Part shown: positions 18,876 to 30,448 of the stretch, piece by piece | Numbering within the stretch: the first letter of the stretch is position 1 | Layout: each line of letters begins with the position of its first letter | Source: Nitrososphaerota archaeon | GTDB taxonomy: Archaea > Thermoproteota > Nitrososphaeria_A > Caldarchaeales > Calditenuaceae | Assembly (NCBI GenBank): GCA_038845265.1 | Contig: JAWBQR010000001.1 | Span: 1 to 64,000 of the forward strand | Direction: 5' to 3' | Length of the DNA stretch: 64,000 nucleotides | Notes under the pieces: model-generated | Told to the model about the DNA's origin: nothing | Databases searched by the model: none | The model's input: only the letters and a program-made list of their open reading frames with translations | Translations under genes and position numbers: made by a program

Positions 18876-19781
18876 CTATGTGGCATTAGTTAATTTAATT
18901 TTTGATCCCGTAGCAGGAGTATTGTTTACAGATTTGACAATGATTTTTCCTTCATATCGACTCATCGCTCTACATACTTCTTCGAGTTTGTTGTCTGTCG
19001 TTAGGGAAGCAAATGAGGGCCCTGTGCCTGATACGCTGCAGGCCAATGCACCGGCTCTCAGGGCGTCAATGATTATCTCTGTAGGTAGGGAAAGGGCCGA
19101 TGCATGTATAAGTCCATTAATAGTCATGGCTCTAAAATAATTTCCCTCTACCGCTAGCCTAAATGCCTCTTCTACTAATCCCTTAATGGGTTCTAGTAAA
19201 TTACTTCTGAAATCCTTAGTAAATTGTTTTTCTGGAGGCACGAGTATGACGGCCCGCAAGTAAGTCGGAGCATCTATGCGTCTTATCAAGACATCTTTTT
19301 TATTATTGGTTATTACTATACCACCAAGTGCACAACTTGATGCATCGTCAATTGCTCCAGTAATCGATGTCCCTGATCGACGTGACGCCTCAGCTACTAT
19401 TGTTAGAAATTCTCTAACACTAAGCTTTACGTCAAGTGCGTCTAGGATTGCTAGCGTTATAGCAACTGCTGCTGAACTAGAGCTCTTAAGCCCGACGGCT
19501 ATTGGGATGTTTGACCTAGTCGTTATTCTGCATCCGAAGGACTCGAGATTCAGTCTTTCGACAAGTACATCTACTATAGCTTTTGCCAAAAGATCATCGC
19601 CTATCTCTTCTTTGTTGACAAGAGTAACTTTTCCATCATCTGTCAGCTCTACTTCTGCATCTGTCTCGAAATCCACTCCGATTGCTGCTCCTCTCCAAAT
19701 AGATATGGCATTGATTATCGTCACGGCGCCATACGCCCTTGCCCACCCTCTCCCTTGACTCCTCATTCTGGCTAGAGTCAA
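18876..19781 (-). CDS. aroK: Archaeal shikimate kinase (GHMP family)
   Basis: GLKSSSS, SITGAIDD and SGTGPS. Confidence 0.93.
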   Translation of the reverse strand: MTLARMRSQGRGWARAYGAVTIINAISIWRGAAIGVDFETDAEVELTDDGKVTLVNKEEIGDDLLAKAIVDVLVERLNLESFGCRITTRSNIPIAVGLKSSSSAAVAITLAILDALDVKLSVREFLTIVAEASRRSGTSITGAIDDASSCALGGIVITNNKKDVLIRRIDAPTYLRAVILVPPEKQFTKDFRSNLLEPIKGLVEEAFRLAVEGNYFRAMTINGLIHASALSLPTEIIIDALRAGALACSVSGTGPSFASLTTDNKLEEVCRAMSRYEGKIIVKSVNNTPATGSKIKLTNAT

Positions 19782-19793
19782 TAAAAAGTAACC

Positions 19794-19995
19794 TTTAAAT
19801 TAGACCTTTCCTACGCAAAATGCAAGAGCAGGGGGAATAGGCGTGGGGAGCAAAAACTTCAAATTAATAGGATTTGCGACCTACGCCTATTTCTATGCCT
19901 GGATTAGTTAGGTTTCTCCCTCCCTGCCCCCTGCTCTTGAGGTGGTTGGTAATGTCTATAGTTAATGTGTGGTGTTTTAGACGGAGGTGTGATTC
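19794..19995 (+). promoter_or_regulatory. aro operon promoter and highly structured 5' leader (putative attenuator)
   Basis: TATA TTTAAAT 19794-19800; perfect 13-bp stem 19823-19835/19927-19939; 12-bp inner stem 19836-19847/19880-19891; pyrimidine tract 19913-19938. Confidence 0.75.
19843..19911 (+). CDS. Putative aromatic amino acid leader peptide MGSKNFKLIGFATYAYFYAWIS
   Basis: GTG start 7 nt after GGGGG; 3 Phe, 3 Tyr and 1 Trp in 22 codons; TAG at 19909-19911. Confidence 0.65.
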   Translation: MGSKNFKLIGFATYAYFYAWIS

Positions 19996-21051
19996 ATGAA
20001 AAGAGTAAAGGCCGCGGTTCTAGGCGCTACTGGAATGGTTGGACAACTGTATGTCGAGTTATTGGCTAAGAATCCATGGTTCGAAATATCAGCCGTTACA
20101 GGCAAGTCAAACGTTGGGAAAACACTCGCTGAAGCCTACAGAGGAAGAGGAAACACACCTGAAATATACAAAGACCTTGAAGTGTTACCCTCAGATCCTG
20201 GCAGGATAGACGCAGATATAGTCTTTAGCTGCCTGCCAACAAGTGCTGCGCGAGAAGTCGAGCCGAGATTCGCCGAGGCTGGATTTCCTGTCATAAGCGA
20301 TGCGTCTGCTCATAGGACGTGGCCCGATGTGCCTCTCATTGTGCCGGAGATTAATCCAGAACATCTAGATCTGATTGATGTGCAGAGGAAAAATAGGAAG
20401 TGGGACGGATTCATTGTGACGACGCCCAACTGCACGACAGTTGGATTTGTAATGCCTTTGAAAGCATTGATGGACCAGTTTGGTTTAAAGTATGCTAGCT
20501 TAGTTTCTATGCAGGCAATATCAGGTGCTGGATATAACGGAGTGCCATCCATGGCAATCCTCGGAAACATAATTCCCTACATAGAAGGCGAAGAACCTAA
20601 AGTCATAGAGGAGCCCAGAAAGATCCTTGGAAAATTAAATGATGGTAAGATAATCCCAGCTGAAATAGCAATTGATGCTACCTGTACTCGATCACCCACA
20701 ATTTTTGGGCATTTAGAAGTTATACAGGTCGAACTCAATGAAGATGCGGAAATTGATGAAGTTAAAGAGACATTAAGCACATACTCTGGATTACCACAGA
20801 TGTTAGAGCTTCCCTCTGCCCCAAGAAGACCTATTTATGTATTCGAAGAACCAGATAGGCCTCAACCTAGACTTGATGTTGATTTCGGAGACGTGAAGGG
20901 AATGACAATTACTATTGGTAGACTTAGGAAATCAAGCAGGCCTCGGCATTACTCGTTTGTATCATTGAGCCATAATTTGATTAGAGGAGCAGCGGGGACA
21001 GCTATACTTACAGCAGAACTTTTAATTGCGACTAGGAGGTTGAACTATTGA
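19996..21051 (+). CDS. asd: Aspartate-semialdehyde dehydrogenase
   Basis: LGATGMVG, PNCTT, QAISGAG and HNLIRGAAG; SD GGAGGTG. Confidence 0.96.
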   Translation: MKRVKAAVLGATGMVGQLYVELLAKNPWFEISAVTGKSNVGKTLAEAYRGRGNTPEIYKDLEVLPSDPGRIDADIVFSCLPTSAAREVEPRFAEAGFPVISDASAHRTWPDVPLIVPEINPEHLDLIDVQRKNRKWDGFIVTTPNCTTVGFVMPLKALMDQFGLKYASLVSMQAISGAGYNGVPSMAILGNIIPYIEGEEPKVIEEPRKILGKLNDGKIIPAEIAIDATCTRSPTIFGHLEVIQVELNEDAEIDEVKETLSTYSGLPQMLELPSAPRRPIYVFEEPDRPQPRLDVDFGDVKGMTITIGRLRKSSRPRHYSFVSLSHNLIRGAAGTAILTAELLIATRRLNY

Positions 21052-21845
21052 TGGTCTCAGGTAAGCAGGTTCATATAAATCGACTTACTGAGAGGGGAAG
21101 AATGCTATGTATTCCGATGGATCATGGCATTACTGCCGGACCAATGAAGGGTTTAGACACAATCTACCAGACGATTGAAAAAATTGAAGAAGGAGGGGCG
21201 ACAGCTTTCCTTGTACAGAAAGGAATAATTAAACATATGAAGAGAGTACCAAGAATTGGCTTTATTGTCCATGTCTCCGCTAGTACTTCGATATGCCCAG
21301 ATCCGAACTGGAAAGTAAGAGTAGGAACAGCATTGGCGGCGATAAGGCTAGGTGCTGACGGATTATCAGTCCACATAAATATTGGAAGTAAAATGGAGCC
21401 ACTCATGCTCAAAAAGCTTGGCCTACTCGTTGATGAATGTGATTCACTCGGCCTACCAATCATTGCAATGATGTATCCAAGAGGAGAAGGAGTAAAGGAC
21501 CCAAATGATCCGAAAATATTGGCACATGTCGCTAGGGTTGGCGCCGAGCTAGGAGCAGACATTGTTAAGGTACCATTTAGTGGAGATGCAGAAAGTTTTA
21601 GTAAAATAGTTGAGGCATGTCCCGCACCCATAGTTATGGCCGGAGGCCCGAAGGTAGATAGTGACGAGGCTGTACTAGCTATGGCTAAAGCTGCAATAGA
21701 TGCGGGCGCAATGGGAGTTACTATTGGTAGAAACGTGTTTATGCATGAAAAACCTGAACTCATCGTCAGGGCTTTAAGAGGAGTAGTGATAGAGGGTATG
21801 AATGTCAAGGAGGCGCTATCCATTATTGAGACAAAATCAGAATAA
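21048..21845 (+). CDS. aroA': 2-amino-3,7-dideoxy-D-threo-hept-6-ulosonate synthase (MJ0400-type class I aldolase)
   Basis: PMDHG, MMYPRG, ELGADIVK, AGGPK and GRNVF; operon context. Confidence 0.9.
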   Translation: MMVSGKQVHINRLTERGRMLCIPMDHGITAGPMKGLDTIYQTIEKIEEGGATAFLVQKGIIKHMKRVPRIGFIVHVSASTSICPDPNWKVRVGTALAAIRLGADGLSVHINIGSKMEPLMLKKLGLLVDECDSLGLPIIAMMYPRGEGVKDPNDPKILAHVARVGAELGADIVKVPFSGDAESFSKIVEACPAPIVMAGGPKVDSDEAVLAMAKAAIDAGAMGVTIGRNVFMHEKPELIVRALRGVVIEGMNVKEALSIIETKSE

Positions 21846-22830
21846 ACCAAAAGAAATTATCGTTGAAGTTAAGACAACCAAGGAAGCGGTAGAAGCGGTA
21901 GCGAAGGGCGCTAGTGCACTTTTTGCTCCATACAACATTATTCCTCCTGAATTAAGAGATAAAGTGAAGATTTACAACGAGGAGACGGGCACCTCGATAA
22001 TTTCGATAAAAACTCCCTCGGACGTCGAGTTGATTCATAGAGCAGCTATGGCAGGGGCATCTGCAATTTTAGTAGAGACATCAGACATAAGAATCATACC
22101 GTTGGAAAATGTTTTGGCAAAGCTTCAAGGAATGAATACTGAGGTTCTGGTCAGAGTTGATAAAATTGAGGATATTGAGACCCTCTTCGGAGTATTAGAA
22201 AAAGGAGTAGACGGCATCGTCTATAGCCCATCAAGTATTGAAGAAGTTTCGCTTTTAAGAGATTTTCTAAATTATGTGAAAAAGGTCGAACTTGTTCCTG
22301 CAAGAGTCAAAGAGGTAATAAATGCAGGTATTGGTGAGAGAGCCTGCATTGATACGACAACGATGTTAAGGATTGGGGAGGGACTTCTTGTAGGAAGCAT
22401 GTCCCGAATGCTATTCCTAGTTCACAGCGAAGTTATTGGTTCAAGTTTCACTGAACCTCGTCCATTCAGAATAAACGCCGGAGCTATACATCTATACACT
22501 TTAGGACCATTGGCAAATACTTATTACTTATCCGAGTTAAAAGCTGGAAAAAGAGTGCTAATAGTATCTAAAGACGGCTCCACTAGAGTGGCAACAATTG
22601 GGAGGGTAAAGATTGAGAGGCGACCATTGATGATGATCTCAGCCGAGATTGATAATACTAATGGCTCCGTGATTGTTCAAAATGCTGAGACGATTAGATT
22701 AGTCGACCGCAATGGTGAACCTATTGAAGTGACAAGGATAGGTGCTGGTGATGAAGTACTAGTACATCTCTCAGGAATATCAGGCAGACACATGGGGATG
22801 AAAGTAGAGGAAAGCATAAATGAAGTTTAA
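21802..22830 (+). CDS. aroB': 3-dehydroquinate synthase II (MJ1249-type)
   Basis: IIPLEN, RACIDT, RPFRINAG, KIERRP, QNAETIRL and RHMG. Confidence 0.93.
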   Translation: MSRRRYPLLRQNQNKPKEIIVEVKTTKEAVEAVAKGASALFAPYNIIPPELRDKVKIYNEETGTSIISIKTPSDVELIHRAAMAGASAILVETSDIRIIPLENVLAKLQGMNTEVLVRVDKIEDIETLFGVLEKGVDGIVYSPSSIEEVSLLRDFLNYVKKVELVPARVKEVINAGIGERACIDTTTMLRIGEGLLVGSMSRMLFLVHSEVIGSSFTEPRPFRINAGAIHLYTLGPLANTYYLSELKAGKRVLIVSKDGSTRVATIGRVKIERRPLMMISAEIDNTNGSVIVQNAETIRLVDRNGEPIEVTRIGAGDEVLVHLSGISGRHMGMKVEESINEV

Positions 22831-23539
22831 GCCAGAAGAAAAAATATGCGTTTCAATAGCAGGAAAAAATTTCTACGAAGTAACTAACCAGTTAGAAGTA
22901 TTAAATGAGGCTGGAGCCAAATTAGTAGAGATGAGATTAGATTTTCTTATTGATAATAAATATCTGGAAGTTTTGAAAGCCGCTTCAAATTACGGTTTTA
23001 AAATAGTATCAACGGTTAGATGCAGGACAGATGGCGGAGTATTTGATAAGAGCGAAGAACAACGTAAAAAAATTCTTTTGGAGAGCGCTTCAATAGCCAC
23101 TTATGTCGATGTCGAATACGATACGTATCTCTCCGATGAGCAGTTCATAGAAAAGCTGAAGGATCGAGGCTCGAAGATCTTACTTTCAAAACATTTTTTT
23201 GAATATAATCCAAATCATCAGACGCTGATTATGATTTTGGAGAGAATGAAAGACTATGGAGATTTATACAAAATAATTACCTCTCCTAAAAATCTGTTTG
23301 ATGCAAATAATCTGTTATCTCTATACAAATATGACTGGACTAAGGGACGGTTAATCGCCTTTTGTATGGGGGAACAATGGGCCTTCACGCGTCTTCTCAG
23401 TATTTTCTTGGGAGCACCTTTTACATATGCACATAATGGCAATTCTCCCGTGGCGTCAGGACAACTTTCATTCATAGAGGTGAAAAATGAATTAGAAAAA
23501 CTATCATGGTTGGGTGAAAAATGGCATTTCTCGCAGTAA
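22820..23539 (+). CDS. aroD: Type I 3-dehydroquinate dehydratase
   Basis: EMRLD, YVDVE, SKHFF, FCMG and ASGQ. Confidence 0.9.
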   Translation: MKFKPEEKICVSIAGKNFYEVTNQLEVLNEAGAKLVEMRLDFLIDNKYLEVLKAASNYGFKIVSTVRCRTDGGVFDKSEEQRKKILLESASIATYVDVEYDTYLSDEQFIEKLKDRGSKILLSKHFFEYNPNHQTLIMILERMKDYGDLYKIITSPKNLFDANNLLSLYKYDWTKGRLIAFCMGEQWAFTRLLSIFLGAPFTYAHNGNSPVASGQLSFIEVKNELEKLSWLGEKWHFSQ

Positions 23540-24369
23540 TTGGTCACCCCGTTGGTCATTCATTATCTCCTTTAATGCATAACTCTACATTATGGATGTA
23601 TAGATTACCTCATAGGTATCTTGCAATAGATATATTACCAGAGAATCTTAGAAATGTAATAAATTCATTATGGAAATTAGAATTTATAGGCTTCAATATA
23701 ACTATACCTCATAAGGAGCAAGTAGCGAAAATCGCTATAGAACTCTCAGAGGAGGCCGCCTCAACAGGCGCGGTAAATACCACAATCAGAAAAAGCGATG
23801 GCTGGGCGGGCTTTAACACGGATGTTGAAGGTTTCATTTCTAGTTTTTCCAGATTAAATGTAAGAATGATCGATACTTGTTTAATACTAGGTGCTGGTGG
23901 TTCTGCAAAAGCTGCAACCTACGCATTGGACAAAATGGGTGCAAGAAAAATTATAATTGCTAACAGAACGCCTGAAAGAGCAATAAAACTACGTGAATTA
24001 ATGGATCCAAAAATTAGCAGCAATCTAGAAATAATATCACTAGATGATGTTAATAATCATGTATCTAGAGTAGATGTTGTAATTAACGCAACACCAGTTG
24101 GGTTGATGGACGATAAATTATTAATTAATCCTGAATGCTTAACAATTGATCAAATAGTCTATGATCTTGTCTATTCGCCTAGACCCACTCCACTAATACG
24201 AGCGGCTATGAATAGAGGCTGTAAAATCATTGACGGAGTAGTGCATCTCGTAGAGCAGGGTGCAGCTTCGTTTAGGATATGGACAGGCATTACTCCTGAA
24301 ACTTCATTTATGGAGAAAGTAGTGAGAACCGAACTGCTGAGAAGGTGGAGGAGAAGTGAGATTAGTTAG
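23521..24369 (+). CDS. aroE: Shikimate dehydrogenase
   Basis: GHSLSP, NITIPHK, NTD, GAGGSA and NATPVG. Confidence 0.96.
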   Translation: MAFLAVIGHPVGHSLSPLMHNSTLWMYRLPHRYLAIDILPENLRNVINSLWKLEFIGFNITIPHKEQVAKIAIELSEEAASTGAVNTTIRKSDGWAGFNTDVEGFISSFSRLNVRMIDTCLILGAGGSAKAATYALDKMGARKIIIANRTPERAIKLRELMDPKISSNLEIISLDDVNNHVSRVDVVINATPVGLMDDKLLINPECLTIDQIVYDLVYSPRPTPLIRAAMNRGCKIIDGVVHLVEQGAASFRIWTGITPETSFMEKVVRTELLRRWRRSEIS

Positions 24370-25633
24370 GATTACAGGTAAAATAGCAGAGGGAGTCATT
24401 AAGGCACCGCCCAGTAAAAGCTATACACATCGTAGCGTGATCATCGCGTCCCTAGCAGATGGAACCTCATATATTCATAATCCCCTGATCTCTATGGATA
24501 CAGTTGCCTCAATAACTGGAGTAACACTCATGGGAGCAAAGATCACACAAGAAACTAATAAACTGATTATAGAAGGAGTCAGTAATCCCCTGACGCCTCC
24601 CGATGTTATAGATGCTAAAAATTCGGGTACCACTTTGAGAATACTAACTGCAGTTGCTGGTCTAGTAAAAAGTGGATATGTAGTGCTTACTGGTGACGAT
24701 AGCTTGAGGAAAAGACCCATGCAACCGCTCCTAGAAGCTCTTCATCAACTTGGAGTGGAGGCTTGGTCAACTAGGCTCAATGGAAAGGCCCCAATAATAG
24801 TAAAGGGTGGGGGATACAAATATCGAGAATGCATCATTACAGGAGAGATAAGCAGTCAATTCATATCTGGATTGATGATCGCGGGGGCCAAGACAGAGCT
24901 TGGCATCTTAGTAAAAATATCTGGGAAAATAGTTTCCTTGCCCTATATACACGCTACCATGAAGACTCAAGAATTGTTCGGTGCAAAATCTATTGTGCAA
25001 GATAGCCAAATAATTACTGAGTCAACCGGCTACAAATCTACTGAATTCAAGGTGCCTGGAGATTACGGACTCTCAGCATTCTTATTAGCTGTACCGTTTA
25101 TGATTGGGGGAGAAATAACTTTAAGGGGACTTAATGATGAATTGCCACAACCGGAGGCTGTAATTATCAATATCCTTAGGAACATGGGTGGAGAAATAAA
25201 ACAAGGCCGAGACGAAGTATTAGTGAGAGACACTCCCTTAGAAGGAATAAAGGTATCACTCAGAGACTCGCCCGATTTGTTACCTGTTATATCGGCATTA
25301 GCAGTAAAAGCGAAAAATGAAACTGTCATTACTGATGTGGGTCATGCTAGGTTTAAAGAAAGTGATAGGATATCGGTGATAGCAACAGAATTTAGAAAAG
25401 CAGGCATTAAGACTGAAGAGCTACCTGAGGGGTTAAGAATATTGCCGGGTGAACTTAAACCCGCAGTGCTTGACCCACATGGTGACCATAGACTGTTCAT
25501 GGCTTTTTCACTATTGTCAATATATTCTGGTGGGAAAGTATTAGTAAAAGATCCAGAATGTGTAGCAGTCTCATATCCACAGTTCTTAAATGATCTTAAA
25601 ACCATAGGTTGTAGGGTGGAAATAATAGAATGA
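24356..25633 (+). CDS. aroA: EPSP synthase
   Basis: PSKSYTHR, NSGTTLR, SSQFISG, KESDRI and DHR. Confidence 0.96.
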   Translation: MRLVRITGKIAEGVIKAPPSKSYTHRSVIIASLADGTSYIHNPLISMDTVASITGVTLMGAKITQETNKLIIEGVSNPLTPPDVIDAKNSGTTLRILTAVAGLVKSGYVVLTGDDSLRKRPMQPLLEALHQLGVEAWSTRLNGKAPIIVKGGGYKYRECIITGEISSQFISGLMIAGAKTELGILVKISGKIVSLPYIHATMKTQELFGAKSIVQDSQIITESTGYKSTEFKVPGDYGLSAFLLAVPFMIGGEITLRGLNDELPQPEAVIINILRNMGGEIKQGRDEVLVRDTPLEGIKVSLRDSPDLLPVISALAVKAKNETVITDVGHARFKESDRISVIATEFRKAGIKTEELPEGLRILPGELKPAVLDPHGDHRLFMAFSLLSIYSGGKVLVKDPECVAVSYPQFLNDLKTIGCRVEIIE

Positions 25634-26733
25634 CTGGTAACATAATTGGAAAAAGATTTATAGTGATAAGTTTCGGTGAGAGTCATGGCAAATGCATAGG
25701 CGTAGTGATTGATGGATGTCCAGCCGGTCTGCCAATATCGGAAGATGAAATTCAATCTTTCGTAGATCTGAGAAGACCAGGCCAGTCATTAGTAACAACA
25801 CAAAGAAAAGAAGAGGACAAAGTAGAGATACTCAGCGGCATATTTGACGGACACACTACCGGTGCGCCAATAGCAATGGTGGTTTGGAACAAGGATGTAG
25901 ATTCACGTGCATATGATATCTTCAGACAAATTCCTAGGCCTAGTCATGCGGATTATTTTGCTTTTTTTAAATATGGGGGATACAATGATTGGAGAGGCGG
26001 TGGAAGATTCTCAGGCAGAATAACTGTAGGATTCGTTATGGCTGGCGCCGTGGCACTAAAATTGATCAAATACGTTCTAGGAATAGATGTACTAGCATAT
26101 ACTAAGAGTATAGGAGATATAAATTCACGCGAACTAACTGTTGAAGAGATAAGAAAGTACAGATACTTAAATGAGGTAAGATGCCCAGACTTAGGGGCGG
26201 CTAAGAAAATGAAGGATCTATTAATCAAACTTAAAAGTGAGGGAGATAGCATAGGTGGGATAATTGAATGCATCGCTTTAAATGTACCAATAGGGCTTGG
26301 AGAACCAGTCTTTGATTCTCTCGACTCAGAGATTGCTAAGGCAATATTTTCTATCCCGGCTGTAAAGGGAATAGAGTTCGGAAAAGGATTTTCTGCTAGT
26401 AGAATGACTGGGTCTCAACATAATGATCCGCTTACCTATATTAATGGAAGAGTGATTCCAAAAACGAACAATGCAGGGGGAATCGTTGGAGGTTTATCAA
26501 CTGGAAGCGAGATAATATTTCGCGTAGCATTTAAGCCACCTGCATCTATATCAAAGCCTCAGAAAACCCTGAATATTCAGACTTTGAGAGATGAAGATCT
26601 TATAATTACCGGTAGACATGACCCATCGGTAGTTCCGCGAGCTGTGCCTATTGTTGAGTCAATGACGGCGATAGTACTTGCTGACCACGCAATCAGAGCA
26701 GGACTGATAGCTCCAGTAATTAAAGAGAGATGA
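25630..26733 (+). CDS. aroC: Chorismate synthase
   Basis: FGESHG, PRPSHAD, GGGRFSGR and GRHDP. Confidence 0.97.
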   Translation: MTGNIIGKRFIVISFGESHGKCIGVVIDGCPAGLPISEDEIQSFVDLRRPGQSLVTTQRKEEDKVEILSGIFDGHTTGAPIAMVVWNKDVDSRAYDIFRQIPRPSHADYFAFFKYGGYNDWRGGGRFSGRITVGFVMAGAVALKLIKYVLGIDVLAYTKSIGDINSRELTVEEIRKYRYLNEVRCPDLGAAKKMKDLLIKLKSEGDSIGGIIECIALNVPIGLGEPVFDSLDSEIAKAIFSIPAVKGIEFGKGFSASRMTGSQHNDPLTYINGRVIPKTNNAGGIVGGLSTGSEIIFRVAFKPPASISKPQKTLNIQTLRDEDLIITGRHDPSVVPRAVPIVESMTAIVLADHAIRAGLIAPVIKER

Positions 26734-28139
26734 GTAAGATGTCTTCAGAAGATATAAGAAAGTTGAGAGAAGAAATAAAAGAAGTTACATCTAAAATTCT
26801 GGAGCTAATTGCATATAGGCTCAAAAAGGCAGAGGAGATTGGTAAACTAAAAAATGAAATAGGAATTTCATATATAGATCATGAGGTTGAAAAAGAATTA
26901 AGAGAACTTATCAATAAAAAGTCTCTTCAACTAGGCCTCGATACAAATTTTACCCAGCAATTAATGACGCTGATCTTCAAAGAATCTATAAAGCAACAAA
27001 TGAGCCTAACTAAGTTTACTAATAAAACGCAAATAACTCATATGGATATTTTTAGAAAAGCAAAAGAATTAGAGGCAGAAGGAAAGAAAATTATTCACCT
27101 AGAAGTAGGCGAGCCATATTTTGGAGCACCAAGAGAAGTTTCTGAAAAACTATCAGAAGCAGCAAAGAAGGGATATGCATTTTATGGAGAACCTTTAGGA
27201 AGAACAGAACTAAGATTTGCAATTGCAGAATGTTTAGAAAAAAGATTCAGCATCTCACTAAAAAAGGATGAAATACTAATAACACCAGGTGGACGATTTG
27301 CAGTCTTTCTTGCAGCTGCCACAACTCTATCTCCCGGAGATGAAGCTATAATAATTGACCCATCATGGCCTATGTATAAACAGGTAACGGAATTTTTACA
27401 GAGCAGACCTGTTATTGTTGAGACTCGCCTCGAGGATGGATGGATTCCTAATATTGAAGAGCTTGAAAGAGCTGCTAGCCATGCAACAAAATTATTATTC
27501 ATTAACTATCCAAATAATCCTACCGGCGTAACCATTGATAGGAAAAGACTTGAAGAGATATTAGATTTCGCTAGAAGGAGGAATCTCTACGTCGTCAGCG
27601 ATGAAGTATATATGGATTATTCATTCGTTGACTTCACGTCAATTCTTGAAATAGGATACGAAAATGCAATAATGCTAATGTCATTTTCAAAAAATTATGG
27701 CATGACCGGCTACAGAATCGGCTATATGGTTGCAAAAAGAGAAATAATAGAGAGAGCAGCAAAGATACAAGCTCTACTCATGACCTGCGTGCCTGAATTT
27801 ATTCAGATGGCTGCCCTTGAAGCACTAAAAGACAGAGAGACTCCTAAAAAATATTGTGAAGAAATTAAAAAAAGAATTGAAGTAGTATGTCAAAAATTAG
27901 ATAGCATGAATGCTGAATACGTCAAGCCAACAGGTGGAATGTATGTTTTTCCTCGATTTAAATTCATGAAGAGAGATTCCTCCGAACTTGCCTTAAAGCT
28001 ATTAGAAAAATATGGAGTATCGATAGCTCCTGGATCAGTATTCGGTAACTATCCGAACTATTTTAGAATATCTGTAGGAATTAGGCTAGACCAAATAGTC
28101 GAGGGAATTGAAAGGCTTAATAAAGCCATAAATGAATAG
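26730..28139 (+). CDS. Chorismate mutase (AroQ) fused to class I/II PLP aminotransferase
   Basis: N-terminal about 90 aa AroQ-like (LREEI...R...IGKLK...D..E...ES); then HLEVGEP, NNPTG, SDEVY and SFSKNYGMTGYRIG. Confidence 0.85.
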   Translation: MSKMSSEDIRKLREEIKEVTSKILELIAYRLKKAEEIGKLKNEIGISYIDHEVEKELRELINKKSLQLGLDTNFTQQLMTLIFKESIKQQMSLTKFTNKTQITHMDIFRKAKELEAEGKKIIHLEVGEPYFGAPREVSEKLSEAAKKGYAFYGEPLGRTELRFAIAECLEKRFSISLKKDEILITPGGRFAVFLAAATTLSPGDEAIIIDPSWPMYKQVTEFLQSRPVIVETRLEDGWIPNIEELERAASHATKLLFINYPNNPTGVTIDRKRLEEILDFARRRNLYVVSDEVYMDYSFVDFTSILEIGYENAIMLMSFSKNYGMTGYRIGYMVAKREIIERAAKIQALLMTCVPEFIQMAALEALKDRETPKKYCEEIKKRIEVVCQKLDSMNAEYVKPTGGMYVFPRFKFMKRDSSELALKLLEKYGVSIAPGSVFGNYPNYFRISVGIRLDQIVEGIERLNKAINE

Positions 28140-28183: not shown

Positions 28184-28942
28184 TTGACACAAGAACCCAA
28201 AAGATACGATAAAAATGAAAGACAAATATTTGACGCTCTGAAAGAATCTTTAATGAATAAAATAGCTGCAGAAATAACCTTATCAAGTAATAGTGGAGTT
28301 ACTATGAAGAAATGGAGAGTATTATTCGAGCTTAAGCAGAGTGATGTTGCAAGAAAAATGTCTATTTCGCCTTCTGTCTTAAGCGACTATGAAAAGGGAA
28401 AACGTAGGTCTCCAGGTATCGGATTTATCAGACGCTTTATCAAAAGTATAATTGAATTGGATGAGGAGAGAGGCGGGCACAATATTTACAAATTTTCTGG
28501 ACACGCTTCGACCATTCATAAAGCAATAATCGATATTAGTGAGTATAGAGTACCACGAAGACTGGGTGATCTCTTATCAGCCATAGAGGGGACATTTCTA
28601 TGGGGAAACATAAAGTCAGACGCGGAGGTTTACGGATATACGGTAATAGACAGCCTAGCAGCTATTCGCTATATGGAGTCGCATGAATTTATCTACATAT
28701 TTGGTGCGAACTCAATGAGACTCCTAGTCTTTACAGGTGTATCCACAGGAAGATCGCCCATGATAGCGGCCAAGGTTTTTCCAATAAAACCAACTGCCAT
28801 AGCCCTACATGGCCCAAAGGATGAAAAAGAAGTTGATCTACTTGCAATTGAACTAGCAGAGTCGATCGGTGTTCCACTAATTCTATCTAAGTGTCCTGAG
28901 ATAGATAAAATTGTAAGCAACCTAAGAAGGGCGGGAGAATAG
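28184..28942 (+). CDS. XRE-type HTH transcriptional regulator (COG1709-like)
   Basis: KWRVLFELKQSDVARKMSISPSVLSDYEKGKRRSPG; GVSTGRSPMIA. Confidence 0.85.
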   Translation: MTQEPKRYDKNERQIFDALKESLMNKIAAEITLSSNSGVTMKKWRVLFELKQSDVARKMSISPSVLSDYEKGKRRSPGIGFIRRFIKSIIELDEERGGHNIYKFSGHASTIHKAIIDISEYRVPRRLGDLLSAIEGTFLWGNIKSDAEVYGYTVIDSLAAIRYMESHEFIYIFGANSMRLLVFTGVSTGRSPMIAAKVFPIKPTAIALHGPKDEKEVDLLAIELAESIGVPLILSKCPEIDKIVSNLRRAGE

Positions 28943-28944
28943 AG

Positions 28945-29667
28945 TTGAAAGTCTATATCGGATGCTGCGGATTCCCGATACCTCAAAATAAGTACGTGGA
29001 GGAGTTTAACATTGTTGAGCTACAATCCACATTCTACAGAATTCCGCGTTTGTCAACAGTCAAGAGATGGAGAGAAAAATGTCCGAGAGATTTTATATTT
29101 ACAGTTAAAGCATTCCAAGGAATAACACATTCAATGAAGAGCCCAACATGGAAGAGATCAAATATAAAACCTAACCCTAATCACGGTGAGTTTAAGCCAA
29201 CAGATGAAGTTTATGAAAGCTGGGAAATCACTAAGCAAATCTGTGAAATACTGTTAGCGCCAATAACTATTATTCAGACACCGCCCACCTTCAAGGACAC
29301 ATCTGAGAATCTTAAAAATATAGAGACGTTTTTCACCACTATTAATAGAGGAAAAATAATGATCGGGTTTGAGCCGAGAGGATGGCAAAAAGAAAATATT
29401 ATAAAAATATGCAAAAAATTTGATTTGATTCATGTTACGGATCCATTTCAACTTCTTCCACTTTATACTTTAGAAGGCAGAACAACATATCTTAGACTTC
29501 ATGGAAGTCCACCTGGGAAAAGAATGTACACGTACAAGTATACTGATGAAGACCTAATGAAACTAAAGGAATTAATAACAAATCTAAAAACGGAAAAAGT
29601 CTATATCTTATTCAATAATATCAGTATGTATGAAGATTCAAAAAGATTAATAAAACTATTCACTTAG
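28945..29667 (+). CDS. DUF72 family protein
   Basis: YIGCCGF, VELQSTFY, FEPRG, YLRLHG and FNN. Confidence 0.92.
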   Translation: MKVYIGCCGFPIPQNKYVEEFNIVELQSTFYRIPRLSTVKRWREKCPRDFIFTVKAFQGITHSMKSPTWKRSNIKPNPNHGEFKPTDEVYESWEITKQICEILLAPITIIQTPPTFKDTSENLKNIETFFTTINRGKIMIGFEPRGWQKENIIKICKKFDLIHVTDPFQLLPLYTLEGRTTYLRLHGSPPGKRMYTYKYTDEDLMKLKELITNLKTEKVYILFNNISMYEDSKRLIKLFT

Positions 29668-30448
29668 GCCTAATAGGATTTGAAGTAGCCCAAAGCATAT
29701 CAAAGTATGCCCTCGCCAAGCTTGTTAATCCAAGATGAGCAGAATAAATACCCAACGTTGGTCTTTTTTCCCTGGCTCCCATCAAAATCAACACAACTTC
29801 TGATGAATCACTAATTACTCCGCCACCAAAGCTTATATCCCTTGTTCTAACTTCATGTTCTTCACATAGTTTTTTTATAGAATGATATTCAACATCTTCG
29901 CTTAATAGTATCTGAATTGTTCCTCCCTTTTCTTTAATTAACGACGCAATAGGCAGAATAATTTGCTGAAGATCTTTGGGCATATAAGGCAACGCTATCG
30001 ATAGCTGATACGTAGCCCTTCCGATAACGTCTCTTATACTTTTCCATAAATTTTCTTCACCTCTAATTATCCATATTTCAGGTTTTTCCTTTTCATTTCT
30101 CCGCTCATAAATTGGGTTTAATTCTTGAACAATTACATTCATATGCTCAGCAAGTTCTAGCTCTATTCTGTTTTTTGTAATCTCTGATGCAATTTTCGGT
30201 GACTGCGGCCTATATCTTGTCGGACGCCCTCTTTCGATAATTATCCAGCCTTTCTCGGCTAATGAGTTTAGCGTATCATATATCTTTGATAGTGGTATCT
30301 CACTTTTTTTGCTGATTTCTAAAGCAACGGATTCGCCTATCTCTATTAATGCGAGATAAGCCCTCATTTCATAATCTGTAAGCCCCAATCCGTGAAAAGC
30401 CTTTATCAATCTTTCACTTACCATAAATGACATTTCCTCATTTTTCAA
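29660..30448 (-). CDS. TrmB family transcriptional regulator
   Basis: GLTDYEMRAYLAL..IYDTLNSLAEKGW..GRP. Confidence 0.9.
   Translation of the reverse strand: MKNEEMSFMVSERLIKAFHGLGLTDYEMRAYLALIEIGESVALEISKKSEIPLSKIYDTLNSLAEKGWIIIERGRPTRYRPQSPKIASEITKNRIELELAEHMNVIVQELNPIYERRNEKEKPEIWIIRGEENLWKSIRDVIGRATYQLSIALPYMPKDLQQIILPIASLIKEKGGTIQILLSEDVEYHSIKKLCEEHEVRTRDISFGGGVISDSSEVVLILMGAREKRPTLGIYSAHLGLTSLARAYFDMLWATSNPIRPK

What the first reader, a model, noticed from the sequence alone, without database searches (positions are those of the whole stretch)
19823..19990. Nested, switchable RNA structure in the aro leader with no U-tract terminator
Seen: a perfect 13-bp outer helix CAAGAGCAGGGGG (19823-35)/CCCCCTGCTCTTG (19927-39). 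An inner 12-bp helix AATAGGCGTGGG (19836-47)/CCTACGCCTATT (19880-91) pairs the leader GTG with the Tyr-Ala-Tyr codons and continues through tandem GA/GA into GCAAA/TTTGC. A small hairpin (19897-19913) holds the Trp codon and stop. The G.U pairs favour the + strand as the RNA. The pyrimidine tract TTTCTCCCTCCCTGCCCCCTGCTCTT (19913-38) could instead pair with SD-like AGGTGG (19940-45), or via CCTCC (19919-23) with the asd SD GGAGG (19983-87). Inference: the output is SD occlusion, or exposure of a C/U-rich tract to the archaeal termination factor aCPSF1/FttA, rather than a bacterial intrinsic terminator.
Basis: partly seen in the sequence, partly recalled or inferred. Interest (0 to 1): 0.8.

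Follow-up and report, generated by a model that had tools for sequence, protein, structure and literature searches.

The report
Archaeal aromatic leader-peptide RNA switch
The folded RNA in front of this hot-spring archaeon's aromatic amino-acid operon encodes a tiny peptide packed with tyrosine and phenylalanine codons, so it looks like a ribosome-read amino-acid gauge, a device well known in bacteria but not yet described in archaea.

Summary
The nested helices are real, single-copy, match no Rfam family, and read as RNA only on the + strand.

**Conservation.** I found the element directly upstream of asd, the first gene of the asd-aroA'-aroB'-aroD-aroE-EPSPS-aroC-CM/aminotransferase operon. 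It is present in 18 of the 19 genomes of the window's family (four genera). It was absent from the 57 genomes of the three sister families. The outer helix P1 and inner helix P2 are kept through compensatory changes.

**Leader ORF.** A 21-32-codon ORF is kept in 18 of 18. Its start codon lies in the 5' strand of P2. A conserved Y-x-Y-F-[Y/F](-x-W) codon cluster forms the 3' strand of P2 and the junction after it. Its stop codon sits in or beside a small hairpin, P3. A TATA-like box about 30 nt upstream puts the transcript start at the first base of P1.

**Best reading.** This is a ribosome-read Tyr/Phe(/Trp) leader-peptide sensor.

**Output unresolved.**
- No intrinsic terminator is present.
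- Constrained folds do not support occlusion of the asd SD.
- The pyrimidine-tract/SD complementarity is missing in 8 of 8 genomes of one genus.
- An FttA/nuclease-type output remains untested inference.

Four literature searches found no archaeal amino-acid leader-peptide attenuator. Earlier, mostly unchecked notes of this scan report similar aromatic leader ORFs on other archaeal DNA.

The parts
19794..19801 (.). TATA-like box TTTAAATT. It probably serves the leader-asd transcript, and perhaps also the divergent GHMP-kinase gene.
   Evidence: The motif is read. A TATA-like box lies about 29-32 nt upstream of the first base of P1 in all four genera (sequences). The promoter role is inferred from general archaeal promoter geometry, which I recall.
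19823..19835 (+). P1 5' strand. It includes the G-run 19831-35, which is the SD-like element of the leader ORF. The predicted transcript start is at about 19822-24.
   Evidence: Compensatory changes are shown.
19836..19854 (+). P2 5' strand, holding the leader start codon GTG 19843-45.
19843..19911 (+). Leader ORF of 22 codons, MGSKNFKLIGFATYAYFYAWIS*.
   Evidence: An open frame with a start codon and an aromatic cluster is kept in 18 of 18 homologues.
19873..19891 (+). P2 3' strand. It is made of the codons F-A-T-Y-A-Y.
19882..19902 (+). Aromatic codon cluster Y-A-Y-F-Y-A-W. It is a U-rich patch that runs from P2 into the junction.
   Evidence: Conservation at the amino-acid level, with synonymous TAC/TAT and TTC/TTT swaps, is seen.
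19897..19913 (+). P3, a small hairpin with the stop codon TAG 19909-11 at its 3' side. It is weak here.
   Evidence: Equivalent hairpins with different sequences occur in g4 and g2 (per-sequence folds).
19913..19926 (+). Pyrimidine tract TTTCTCCCTCCCTG, single-stranded in the closed fold.
   Evidence: With a ribosome on the aromatic codons it is predicted to pair with the freed P2 5' strand in this genus.
19927..19939 (+). P1 3' strand.
19952..19999 (+). Second small ORF (MSIVNVWCFRRRCDS*), seen only in this genus. SD-like AGGTGG 19940-45 lies right after P1. Its TGA overlaps the asd ATG (ATGA).
   Evidence: Read; frames. Also present in G002 (ATGA). In G001 it has a TTG start and its TAG overlaps the asd start.
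19983..19989 (+). asd Shine-Dalgarno GGAGGTG.
   Evidence: SD-like motifs lie 5-9 nt before the asd start in all homologues.
19996..21051 (+). asd, aspartate-semialdehyde dehydrogenase, the first gene of the operon.
   Evidence: Pfam PF01118 and PF02774.
21048..28139 (+). The rest of the operon: DeoC-type aldolase (aroA'), DHQS-II (aroB'), aroD, aroE, EPSP synthase, chorismate synthase, and a chorismate mutase-aminotransferase fusion.
   Evidence: Pfam hits.
18876..19781 (-). Divergent GHMP-kinase gene, archaeal shikimate-kinase type by context.
   Evidence: Pfam PF00288 and PF08544. The functional name is inferred from context.

Best explanation
The element is the 5' leader of the asd-aro operon mRNA. 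It works as a ribosome-read sensor of Tyr/Phe (and here Trp) supply.

**Shown**
- The transcript's first roughly 120 nt fold into a closed three-way junction.
- P1 pairs the 5' end with a C-rich segment just upstream of the asd ribosome-binding site. That 5' end carries the leader's G-run SD. In genus g4 it carries a 5'-terminal AUG.
- P2 pairs the leader start codon with the Tyr/Phe codons.
- P3 holds the stop codon.
- The small ORF and its aromatic cluster are conserved.

**Inferred**
- A ribosome that loads on the nascent leader stalls on Y-x-Y-F-Y/F when charged Tyr- or Phe-tRNA is short. This holds P2 open and covers the U-rich junction.
- With ample supply the ribosome reaches the stop codon and leaves. 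The leader then snaps shut and hides its own SD and start. Only ribosomes that load during transcription would then sense supply, which argues for an irreversible read-out.

**Output, inferred and least certain**
- There is no intrinsic terminator and no conserved SD-sequestering helix.
- My preferred guess, at roughly 35% of the total, concerns the closed form. It would leave the U-rich Tyr/Phe patch, the P3 loop and the pyrimidine junction exposed to a U-preferring nuclease or termination factor of the aCPSF1/FttA type.
- That would lower operon mRNA, and a stalled ribosome would shield the site.
- Translational control of asd, or 5'-end stabilisation, are the other routes.
For: **Context**
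- The element lies directly upstream of asd, which heads an operon for the archaeal aspartate-semialdehyde route to shikimate, chorismate, and a CM-aminotransferase fusion.

**Distribution**
- The covariance model hit 15 of 76 genomes of the order, all in family f1.
- Three further f1 genomes that the model missed carry it by sequence.
- That gives 18 of 19 f1 genomes. The nineteenth, G014, has no asd or aroB' hit and is 73% complete.

**Structure**
- P1 and P2 are kept by compensatory changes.
- The G.U pairs fit only the + strand.

**Coding**
- 18 of 18 homologues keep an open frame ending in Y-x-Y-F-[YF].
- The start codon sits at the same P2 position in g1, g2 and g3 (GTG or ATG).
- Where that codon is GTA or ATA (g4, 8 of 8), an in-frame ATG appears at the predicted transcript start.
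- TAC/TAT and TTC/TTT swaps and Tyr-to-Phe replacements keep the residues aromatic while the bases change.
- The codon content matches the operon's products.

**Transcript and terminator**
- A TATA-like box lies about 30 nt upstream of P1 in four genera.
- A metatranscriptome contig spans 19910-20189, joining the 3' part of the leader to asd.
- No terminator-like site was found.

**Factor preference**
- FttA binds and cuts U-rich RNA (passages of PMC11616081).
Against: - There is no experimental datum. No ribosome footprints or RNA ends were available.
- Only about five or six independent lineages lie behind the 18 genomes, all in one family.
- I found no conserved alternative helix. P1 persists in every ribosome-constrained fold, and the predicted state of the asd ribosome-binding site hardly changes. 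The 'switch' is therefore not demonstrated.
- The nuclease/FttA read-out rests on composition only. With tight ribosome-RNAP coupling, a co-transcriptional FttA decision would not obviously go in the right direction.
- The absence of RNA contigs over 19636-19909 in two RNA runs could be due to structure, processing or chance.
- The trpE and hisG upstream regions of the same genome show no comparable leader. The device is therefore not a general habit of this organism.
- Some conservation of the 3' strand of P2 could be due to RNA rather than to codons.
Confidence: 0.6

Rival explanations
1. The sensor is the same, but the output is translational. The pyrimidine tract, or the P1 3' strand, pairs with the asd Shine-Dalgarno or with the SD-like AGGTGG after P1. 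The position of the leader ribosome decides whether that pairing forms.
For: - CCUCC (19919-23) is complementary to GGAGG (19983-87), read. The same holds in G003, G010 and G016, where the C tract is also the 3' strand of P3.
- P3's 5' strand lies where a terminating ribosome would mask it, as in classical designs.
- Bacterial precedents exist. Mycobacterial leaderless poly-Cys sORFs are one (abstract of bioRxiv 10.1101/834739). The actinobacterial LEU element is another (passages of PMC1262725).
Against: - The complementarity is missing in 8 of 8 g4 genomes (asd SD GGUGGAU or GGUGAG) and in G008, G006 and G012. No covariation was seen.
- Constrained folds show no gain of SD or AUG accessibility on stalling. 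Freeing the C tract lowers it at 70 C, which is the wrong direction.
- The duplex between the aromatic codons and the asd start region is no better than shuffles (z from -1.2 to +1.2 in 18 genomes).
- Pseudoknots were not modelled.
Confidence: 0.15
2. A nascent-peptide arrest sensor of the TnaC kind. The conserved T-x-Y-x-Y-F peptide would stall the ribosome when free aromatic amino acid is bound. Stalling would then mean plenty, and would uncouple RNAP or free the C tract to shut the operon off.
For: - Residues next to the aromatic ones (Thr, Gly-Phe-Ala/Thr) are also conserved.
- With this logic, the direction of the folding results (a freed C tract lowers SD accessibility) would fit repression.
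Against: - The distance from the cluster to the stop codon varies from about 2 to 7 codons, and the C-terminal residues vary. That is unlike known arrest peptides, as far as I recall.
- Y and F interchange at one position.
- A codon cluster that matches the operon's products is the classical mark of tRNA-charging sensors.
Confidence: 0.07
3. A structured 5' UTR that works without being translated. It could be a riboswitch-like or protein-binding three-way junction, or simply a 5' stabiliser. The ORF would then be incidental.
For: - The fold is compact and very stable, with a base stem that closes on the 5' end.
- The leader's own SD and start are buried in it.
- Nearly invariant bases occur in the P2 3' strand and in the junction.
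Against: - The frame is open in 18 of 18 genomes. The start codon is conserved, or replaced by an in-frame ATG.
- Aromatic residues are kept through base changes.
- No Rfam family matches, even at a relaxed threshold.
- The junctions vary in length and sequence between genera.
Confidence: 0.1
4. An independent small RNA gene, or a mobile repeat (MITE), that happens to lie between two genes.
For: It is a long, almost perfect nested inverted repeat.
Against: - It is single-copy in the genome.
- It always sits at the same place before asd.
- An RNA contig joins its 3' part to asd.
- No T-run terminator follows it.
Confidence: 0.02

Closest known systems
Enterobacterial leader-peptide transcription attenuators (trpL, pheL-pheA, pheM-pheST)
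   Same: A short ORF at the start of a biosynthetic operon. Its codon cluster matches the operon's end products. The regulatory codons lie inside an RNA helix, and the stop codon lies next to the following hairpin. The full leader fold hides the leader's own ribosome-binding site.
   Different: - No hairpin-plus-U-run terminator is present.
- No conserved 2:3 / 3:4 alternative was found.
- The regulatory codons pair upstream, with the leader's own start, not with a downstream segment.
- A long closing helix ties the mRNA 5' end to the region before the first gene.
- The host is an archaeon.
- No Rfam leader family matches.
Mycobacterial leaderless poly-Cys sORF attenuators (bioRxiv 10.1101/834739; abstract read)
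   Same: A sensory short ORF as the first cistron. There is no terminator. In genus g4 the ORF seems to begin at the 5' end of the mRNA, that is, leaderless. Ribosome stalling on cognate codons is the signal.
   Different: In the mycobacterial case the stalled ribosome blocks a structure that sequesters the next gene's ribosome-binding site. Here no such structure was found.
Actinobacterial LEU element (PMC1262725; passages read)
   Same: A compact fold with a base stem, and a leader ORF whose regulatory codons form one strand of a stem. The mechanism is not classical attenuation.
   Different: In the LEU element the Leu codons pair with the SD of leuA. Here the Tyr/Phe codons pair with the leader's own start region, and the asd SD stays outside the fold.
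tnaC-tnaA: a stalled ribosome masks the entry site of a termination factor
   Same: It would be the logic of my preferred output. The ribosome would sit on the single-stranded factor-entry site next to the end of the leader ORF, and no intrinsic terminator is involved.
   Different: In tnaC the stall is at the stop codon, is induced by free Trp, and turns on a catabolic operon through Rho. Here the stall would be at hungry Tyr/Phe codons, and the factor (aCPSF1/FttA or another nuclease) is only guessed.

Membership tests
Ribosome-mediated leader-peptide transcription attenuators (trpL/pheL type) | A short translated ORF, upstream of a biosynthetic operon, with a cluster of codons for the operon's end product. 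| tested here: met
   The ORF 19843-19911 carries Y-A-Y-F-Y-A-W. The ORF and cluster are conserved in 18 of 18 homologues. Translation itself is inferred.
Ribosome-mediated leader-peptide transcription attenuators (trpL/pheL type) | An intrinsic terminator (a G+C-rich hairpin followed by a U run) between the leader ORF and the first structural gene. | tested here: not met
   No terminator-like site in 19700-20150. There is no T run of 5 or more between P1 and the asd start in G000. The spacers of g2, g3 and g4 (about 23-35 nt) have T runs of at most 3.
Ribosome-mediated leader-peptide transcription attenuators (trpL/pheL type) | Mutually exclusive antiterminator and terminator helices, selected by the ribosome's position. 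| tested here: inconclusive
   P1 persists in all constrained folds. The freed P2 5' strand pairs with the pyrimidine tract in g1, but not in a conserved way in g4. Pseudoknots and folding kinetics were not modelled.
Ribosome-mediated leader-peptide transcription attenuators (trpL/pheL type) | Sequence and structure match to a curated leader family in Rfam. | tested here: not met
   No family reached gathering score in the window. At E up to 10, only chance microRNA-precursor hits appeared over the hairpin.
Translational attenuators with a sensory sORF (mycobacterial Cys sORFs, actinobacterial LEU element) | An RNA structure that sequesters the downstream gene's ribosome-binding site and that a ribosome stalled on the regulatory codons prevents. 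| tested here: not met
   asd SD and AUG accessibility is unchanged or lower on stalling. The C-tract/SD complementarity is absent in 11 of 18 genomes. The duplex between the aromatic codons and the asd start is not above shuffles.
Riboswitches | A conserved ligand pocket of unpaired nucleotides in a fold that does not need translation, or a match to a known class. | tested here: inconclusive
   No Rfam match. The junctions vary between genera, apart from the Tyr/Phe codons. Ligand binding cannot be tested with these tools.
MITE / repeated mobile element | Several copies in the genome, at unrelated sites. | tested here: not met
   There is one full-length copy in G000. The other hits are 13-41 nt with E of 0.16 or more.
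FttA/aCPSF1-dependent terminators | U-rich nascent RNA about 30-36 nt behind the RNA 3' end, with U at -23 (passages of PMC11616081). | not testable with these tools
A U-rich patch (the Tyr/Phe codons and the P3 loop, about 19888-19917) exists. No 3'-end data are available.

The most novel reading that the evidence does not exclude
This would be an amino-acid-sensing leader peptide in Archaea that works without an intrinsic terminator or SD sequestration. It would be a one-shot sensor. The U-rich Tyr/Phe codons themselves would be the entry or cleavage site for a U-preferring factor (aCPSF1/FttA or another nuclease). A ribosome stalled for lack of Tyr- or Phe-tRNA would shield that site and so rescue the asd-aro transcript. 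The leader may have arisen by duplication of the 5' end of asd.
Probability: 0.25. Interest if true: 0.85.

Novelty: new variant of a known kind. Interest (0 to 1): 0.7.

Why it matters
Leader-peptide attenuation is a textbook bacterial mechanism. It depends on coupled transcription and translation and on hairpin terminators.

Archaea couple the two processes but lack hairpin-dependent termination. My four searches of the held library found no described archaeal amino-acid leader-peptide attenuator. The archaeal Ribo-seq papers I read in passages only'-UTR sORFs 'reminiscent' of such genes.

This case offers a conserved, covarying, codon-matched leader before the aromatic operon of an uncultured hot-spring lineage. 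It gives a concrete and testable example of how a ribosome could report amino-acid supply in Archaea. It also poses a clear open question: what replaces the terminator?

Tried and rejected
**Known families and repeats**
- Rfam at gathering and at relaxed thresholds: nothing relevant.
- tRNA or tmRNA at the site: none.
- Repeat or MITE: single copy.
- Bacterial-type terminator or sigma-70 promoter scan: none.

**SD occlusion and alternative pairings**
- SD occlusion by thermodynamic folding with one or two ribosome footprints, at 37 and 70 C: no consistent effect.
- Pairing of the aromatic-codon strand with the asd start region: an apparent match in g4 and g1 did not beat shuffled controls.
- Automatic parsing of P1 from truncated folds failed for 6 of 18 genomes and was replaced by anchored tables.

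**Frameshift or relay idea**
- The +1 frame is open from the aromatic cluster to the asd start in 15 of 18 genomes.
- Overlapping stop/start relays exist in some: G000 ATGA, G012 AUGA and GUGA, and G003, G010 and G016 UAAUG.
- The C-rich, purine-poor composition explains the open frames. No slippery site fits, and genus g4 has no relay. I do not adopt this idea.

**Other leaders in the same genome**
- A crude sORF scan, with looks at the trpE and hisG upstream regions, found none comparable.
- An aromatic sORF before an aminotransferase on contig C3 lies in an AT-rich, unstructured promoter region.

**Distribution beyond the family**
- Sister families: 0 of 57 genomes by the covariance model.
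- None of 17 sampled asd upstream regions has the element. One, G024, has an aromatic-rich open frame without a start codon that its congeners do not share.
- The 'class' scope held the same 76 genomes.
Only 1 of the 80 loci listed is the element, a g2-type copy cut by the contig end.

**RNA runs**
- Only contigs were available, so no RNA ends could be read.
- The lack of RNA contigs over 19636-19909 is no finding.

**Not used or not seen**
- No structure prediction or protein searches were needed.
- Supplementary files of the papers were not seen. The sORF lists of the Haloferax and Methanosarcina Ribo-seq studies could hold comparable leader ORFs.

Full report
**1. The observation**

The sequence holds the helices exactly as described:
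- P1: 19823-35 with 19927-39, 13 perfect pairs.
- P2: 19836-47 with 19880-91, 12 pairs with one G.U. It is prolonged through a tandem G.A/A.G into GCAAA/TTTGC (19850-54 with 19873-77).
- A weak small hairpin at 19897-19913.

RNAfold returns the same nested fold (-59.5 kcal/mol, z = -4.19, 0 of 200 shuffles). The opposite strand folds almost as well (z = -4.38), so energy alone does not pick the strand.

The ORF 19843-19911 (GTG) is in the mechanical ORF list. It reads MGSKNFKLIGFATYAYFYAWIS*.

The element matches no Rfam family at gathering or relaxed thresholds. It is not a tRNA. It is single-copy in the 1.37-Mb, 34-contig genome.

**2. Context**

Pfam names these genes downstream:
- asd (19996-21051);
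- a DeoC-type aldolase and DHQS-II, the archaeal aspartate-semialdehyde route into the shikimate pathway (this pathway reading is recalled);
- type I dehydroquinase;
- shikimate dehydrogenase;
- EPSP synthase;
- chorismate synthase;
- a chorismate mutase-aminotransferase fusion (to 28139).

A GHMP-kinase gene lies divergently upstream (18876-19781). The element fills most of the 214-nt gap between the two.

Relatives of the same genus are titled 'uncultured Nitrososphaeria archaeon' or 'uncultured archaeon'. Nearly all runs that hold the DNA are labelled hot-spring metagenomes.

**3. Relatives**

- A DNA search in 61 genomes found the leader in both congeners (83-85% identity), and part of it in three genomes of another genus.
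- A covariance model built from these six hit 15 of the 76 genomes of the order, all in family f1. By genus: g1 3 of 3 including the window, g4 8 of 8, g2 4 of 7, g3 0 of 1. In the three sister families it hit 0 of 57.
- I fetched 20 asd upstream regions. The three f1 genomes that have asd but were missed by the model (G004, G006, G012) carry the element by sequence and ORF. None of 17 from the other families does.
- The total is 18 of 19 f1 genomes. The exception, G014, has neither an asd nor an aroB' hit and is 73% complete.
- In the other families asd still sits next to aroB'. There it follows another gene closely or has a plain short upstream region.
- The 'class' scope held the same 76 genomes.
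- A metagenome pattern scan was swamped by chance hits. Only 1 of the 80 loci listed is the element.

**4. RNA structure is conserved**

- Pair tables anchored on the codons of both strands, not on a structural alignment, show P2 kept with changes on both sides at seven positions. Examples are C-G to U-A, G-C to A-U, and the tandem G.A becoming U-A and C-G.
- The 10-bp core of P1 is kept in nearly all genomes. Its pair types are C-G, U.G and G-C at one position, and A-U and C-G at another.
- On a model-fitted alignment of 14 sequences, 95.3% of cells pair, against 42-55% in slid controls. Ten pairs change on both sides, against 0-3. None of 500 shuffles reaches the observed values.
- The G.U pairs would be A-C on the other strand, so the RNA is the + strand.
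- Per-sequence folds give the same three-way junction in all genera. P3 differs in sequence but is present in g4 and in part of g2.
- These genomes are kin, with perhaps five or six independent lineages.

**5. The ORF is conserved as an ORF**

All 18 homologues have an open frame that ends in an aromatic cluster:

| Genus or genome | Leader peptide |
|---|---|
| g1 | ..GFATYAYFYAW.. |
| g2 (G003, G010, G016) | ..F.FTAYTYFYFWEG* |
| g2 (G008, G006) | ..FWFTTYPYFYFGN* |
| g2 (G012) | ..GFTTYPYFYTSRRG* |
| g3 | ..RAYFYTDAP* |
| g4 | MSRGRGVGRS....TTYAYFFGP..* |

- The start codon (GTG or ATG) sits at the same position of P2 in g1, g2 and g3.
- In g4 that codon is GTA or ATA, and an in-frame ATG lies at the very start of the element in 8 of 8 genomes.
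- Tyr codons swap TAC and TAT, Phe codons swap TTC and TTT, and one position alternates Tyr and Phe. The residues are thus conserved through base changes.
- The N-terminal part varies freely, as in bacterial leader peptides.
- A G-run that can serve as an SD precedes the start and lies in P1.
- A TATA-like box lies about 29-32 nt before the first base of P1 in all four genera. The mRNA therefore probably starts with P1, and in g4 with a 5'-terminal AUG (leaderless). This rests on recalled archaeal promoter geometry.

**6. How it may work**

The sensing half is well supported:
- The codon cluster matches the operon's products. The operon carries the common pathway plus chorismate mutase and an aminotransferase.
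- The cluster lies in one strand of a helix whose other strand is the leader's own start.
- The closed fold buries the leader's SD in P1 and its start in P2. Mainly ribosomes that load on the nascent RNA can therefore read it.

The output half is not settled:
- There is no intrinsic terminator.
- I placed a ribosome footprint on the aromatic codons, at the stop codon, or added a second ribosome at the leader start. In most genomes P1 stays and the predicted accessibility of the asd SD and AUG is unchanged. Freeing the C tract tends to lower that accessibility at 70 C. That is the wrong direction for a starvation-induced operon.
- The CCUCC/GGAGG match exists here and in three g2 genomes. It is missing in all eight g4 genomes and in the other three g2 genomes with the element.
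- A seeming match between the aromatic strand and the asd 5' coding region did not beat shuffles.

One feature is common to all four genera. A U-rich single strand, made of the Tyr/Phe codons and the P3 loop, is exposed in the closed form and covered by a stalled ribosome. FttA/aCPSF1 binds and cuts U-rich RNA (passages of PMC11616081).

I therefore prefer, with low confidence, an irreversible factor or nuclease read-out that the stalled ribosome blocks.

Metatranscriptome contigs show that the leader's 3' part and asd are on one RNA (19910-20189). They cannot show RNA ends.

**7. Comparison with what is known**

The element works like a leader-peptide attenuator. It fails two defining features of the enterobacterial family, namely the terminator and the 2:3 / 3:4 alternatives.

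It also fails the defining feature of the translational sORF attenuators of Actinobacteria, which is a sequestered downstream ribosome-binding site.

Four full-text searches gave no paper describing an amino-acid leader-peptide attenuator in Archaea. Two archaeal Ribo-seq papers, read in passages only, merely liken 5'-UTR sORFs to such genes. Their supplements were not seen.

Earlier notes of this scan report aromatic leader ORFs before aro operons in Asgard, Woesearchaeota, Thermococcus and other archaea. All but one are unchecked AI notes. They agree with the reading but are not independent evidence. One of them led me to check overlapping downstream frames.

**8. Verdict**

I rate it a new variant of a known kind, and of good interest because it is a well-conserved and testable archaeal case.

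Noticed in passing
window 19940-19999: This genus has a second small ORF (19952-19999, 15 codons). Its SD-like AGGTGG sits immediately after P1. Its TGA overlaps the asd ATG (ATGA). G002 has the same arrangement. In G001 the ORF has a TTG start and its TAG overlaps the asd start. In G012 a comparable ORF overlaps the leader stop (AUGA) and the asd start (GUGA). In G003, G010 and G016 an ATG overlaps the leader stop (UAAUG).
   Followed up: partly
window 19843-19911 against 19996-20050; also L050, and L042-L049: The N-termini of the leader peptides resemble the N-terminus of Asd in the same genome. In g2 both begin MGR. In g4 both begin MSR, with G-V following. In g1 ..LIGFAT.. resembles ..VLGATG... 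The SD-to-start spacing is also alike in G003. The leader may have arisen by duplication of the 5' end of asd. This was not tested statistically.
   Followed up: no
L042-L049, asd codons 4-7: In all 8 g4 genomes the asd codons TTA GGT GTA GCT are identical, including their synonymous sites. The next codons vary at third positions. This suggests an RNA-level constraint on the start of asd. Pairing with the aromatic strand was not supported.
   Followed up: partly
window 19764-19801: The palindromic TTTAAA box at 19794-19801 may serve both directions. The GHMP-kinase gene probably starts at the ATG at 19766-64, not at the TTG at 19781. That would make it a leaderless mRNA.
   Followed up: no
window 26730-28139: The last gene of the operon is a fusion of chorismate mutase type II (residues 12-90) with a class I/II aminotransferase.
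   Followed up: no
window 28184-30448: An HTH_3 protein, a DUF72 protein and a TrmB-family regulator follow the operon. Any of them could be a protein regulator of the region.
   Followed up: no
G000 contig C3 41522-41572 (locus L092 123-173): The aromatic-rich sORF MYSVFGIYFYYFTYLN lies 22 nt before a class I/II aminotransferase gene. It sits in an AT-rich, unstructured stretch that looks like the promoter, so it is probably a chance ORF.
   Followed up: partly
L067 (G024) about 295-387: There is an aromatic-rich open frame (..QDWWIFYTDYP..) upstream of asd in one genome of a sister family. It has no start codon before the cluster, and its two sampled congeners do not share it.
   Followed up: no
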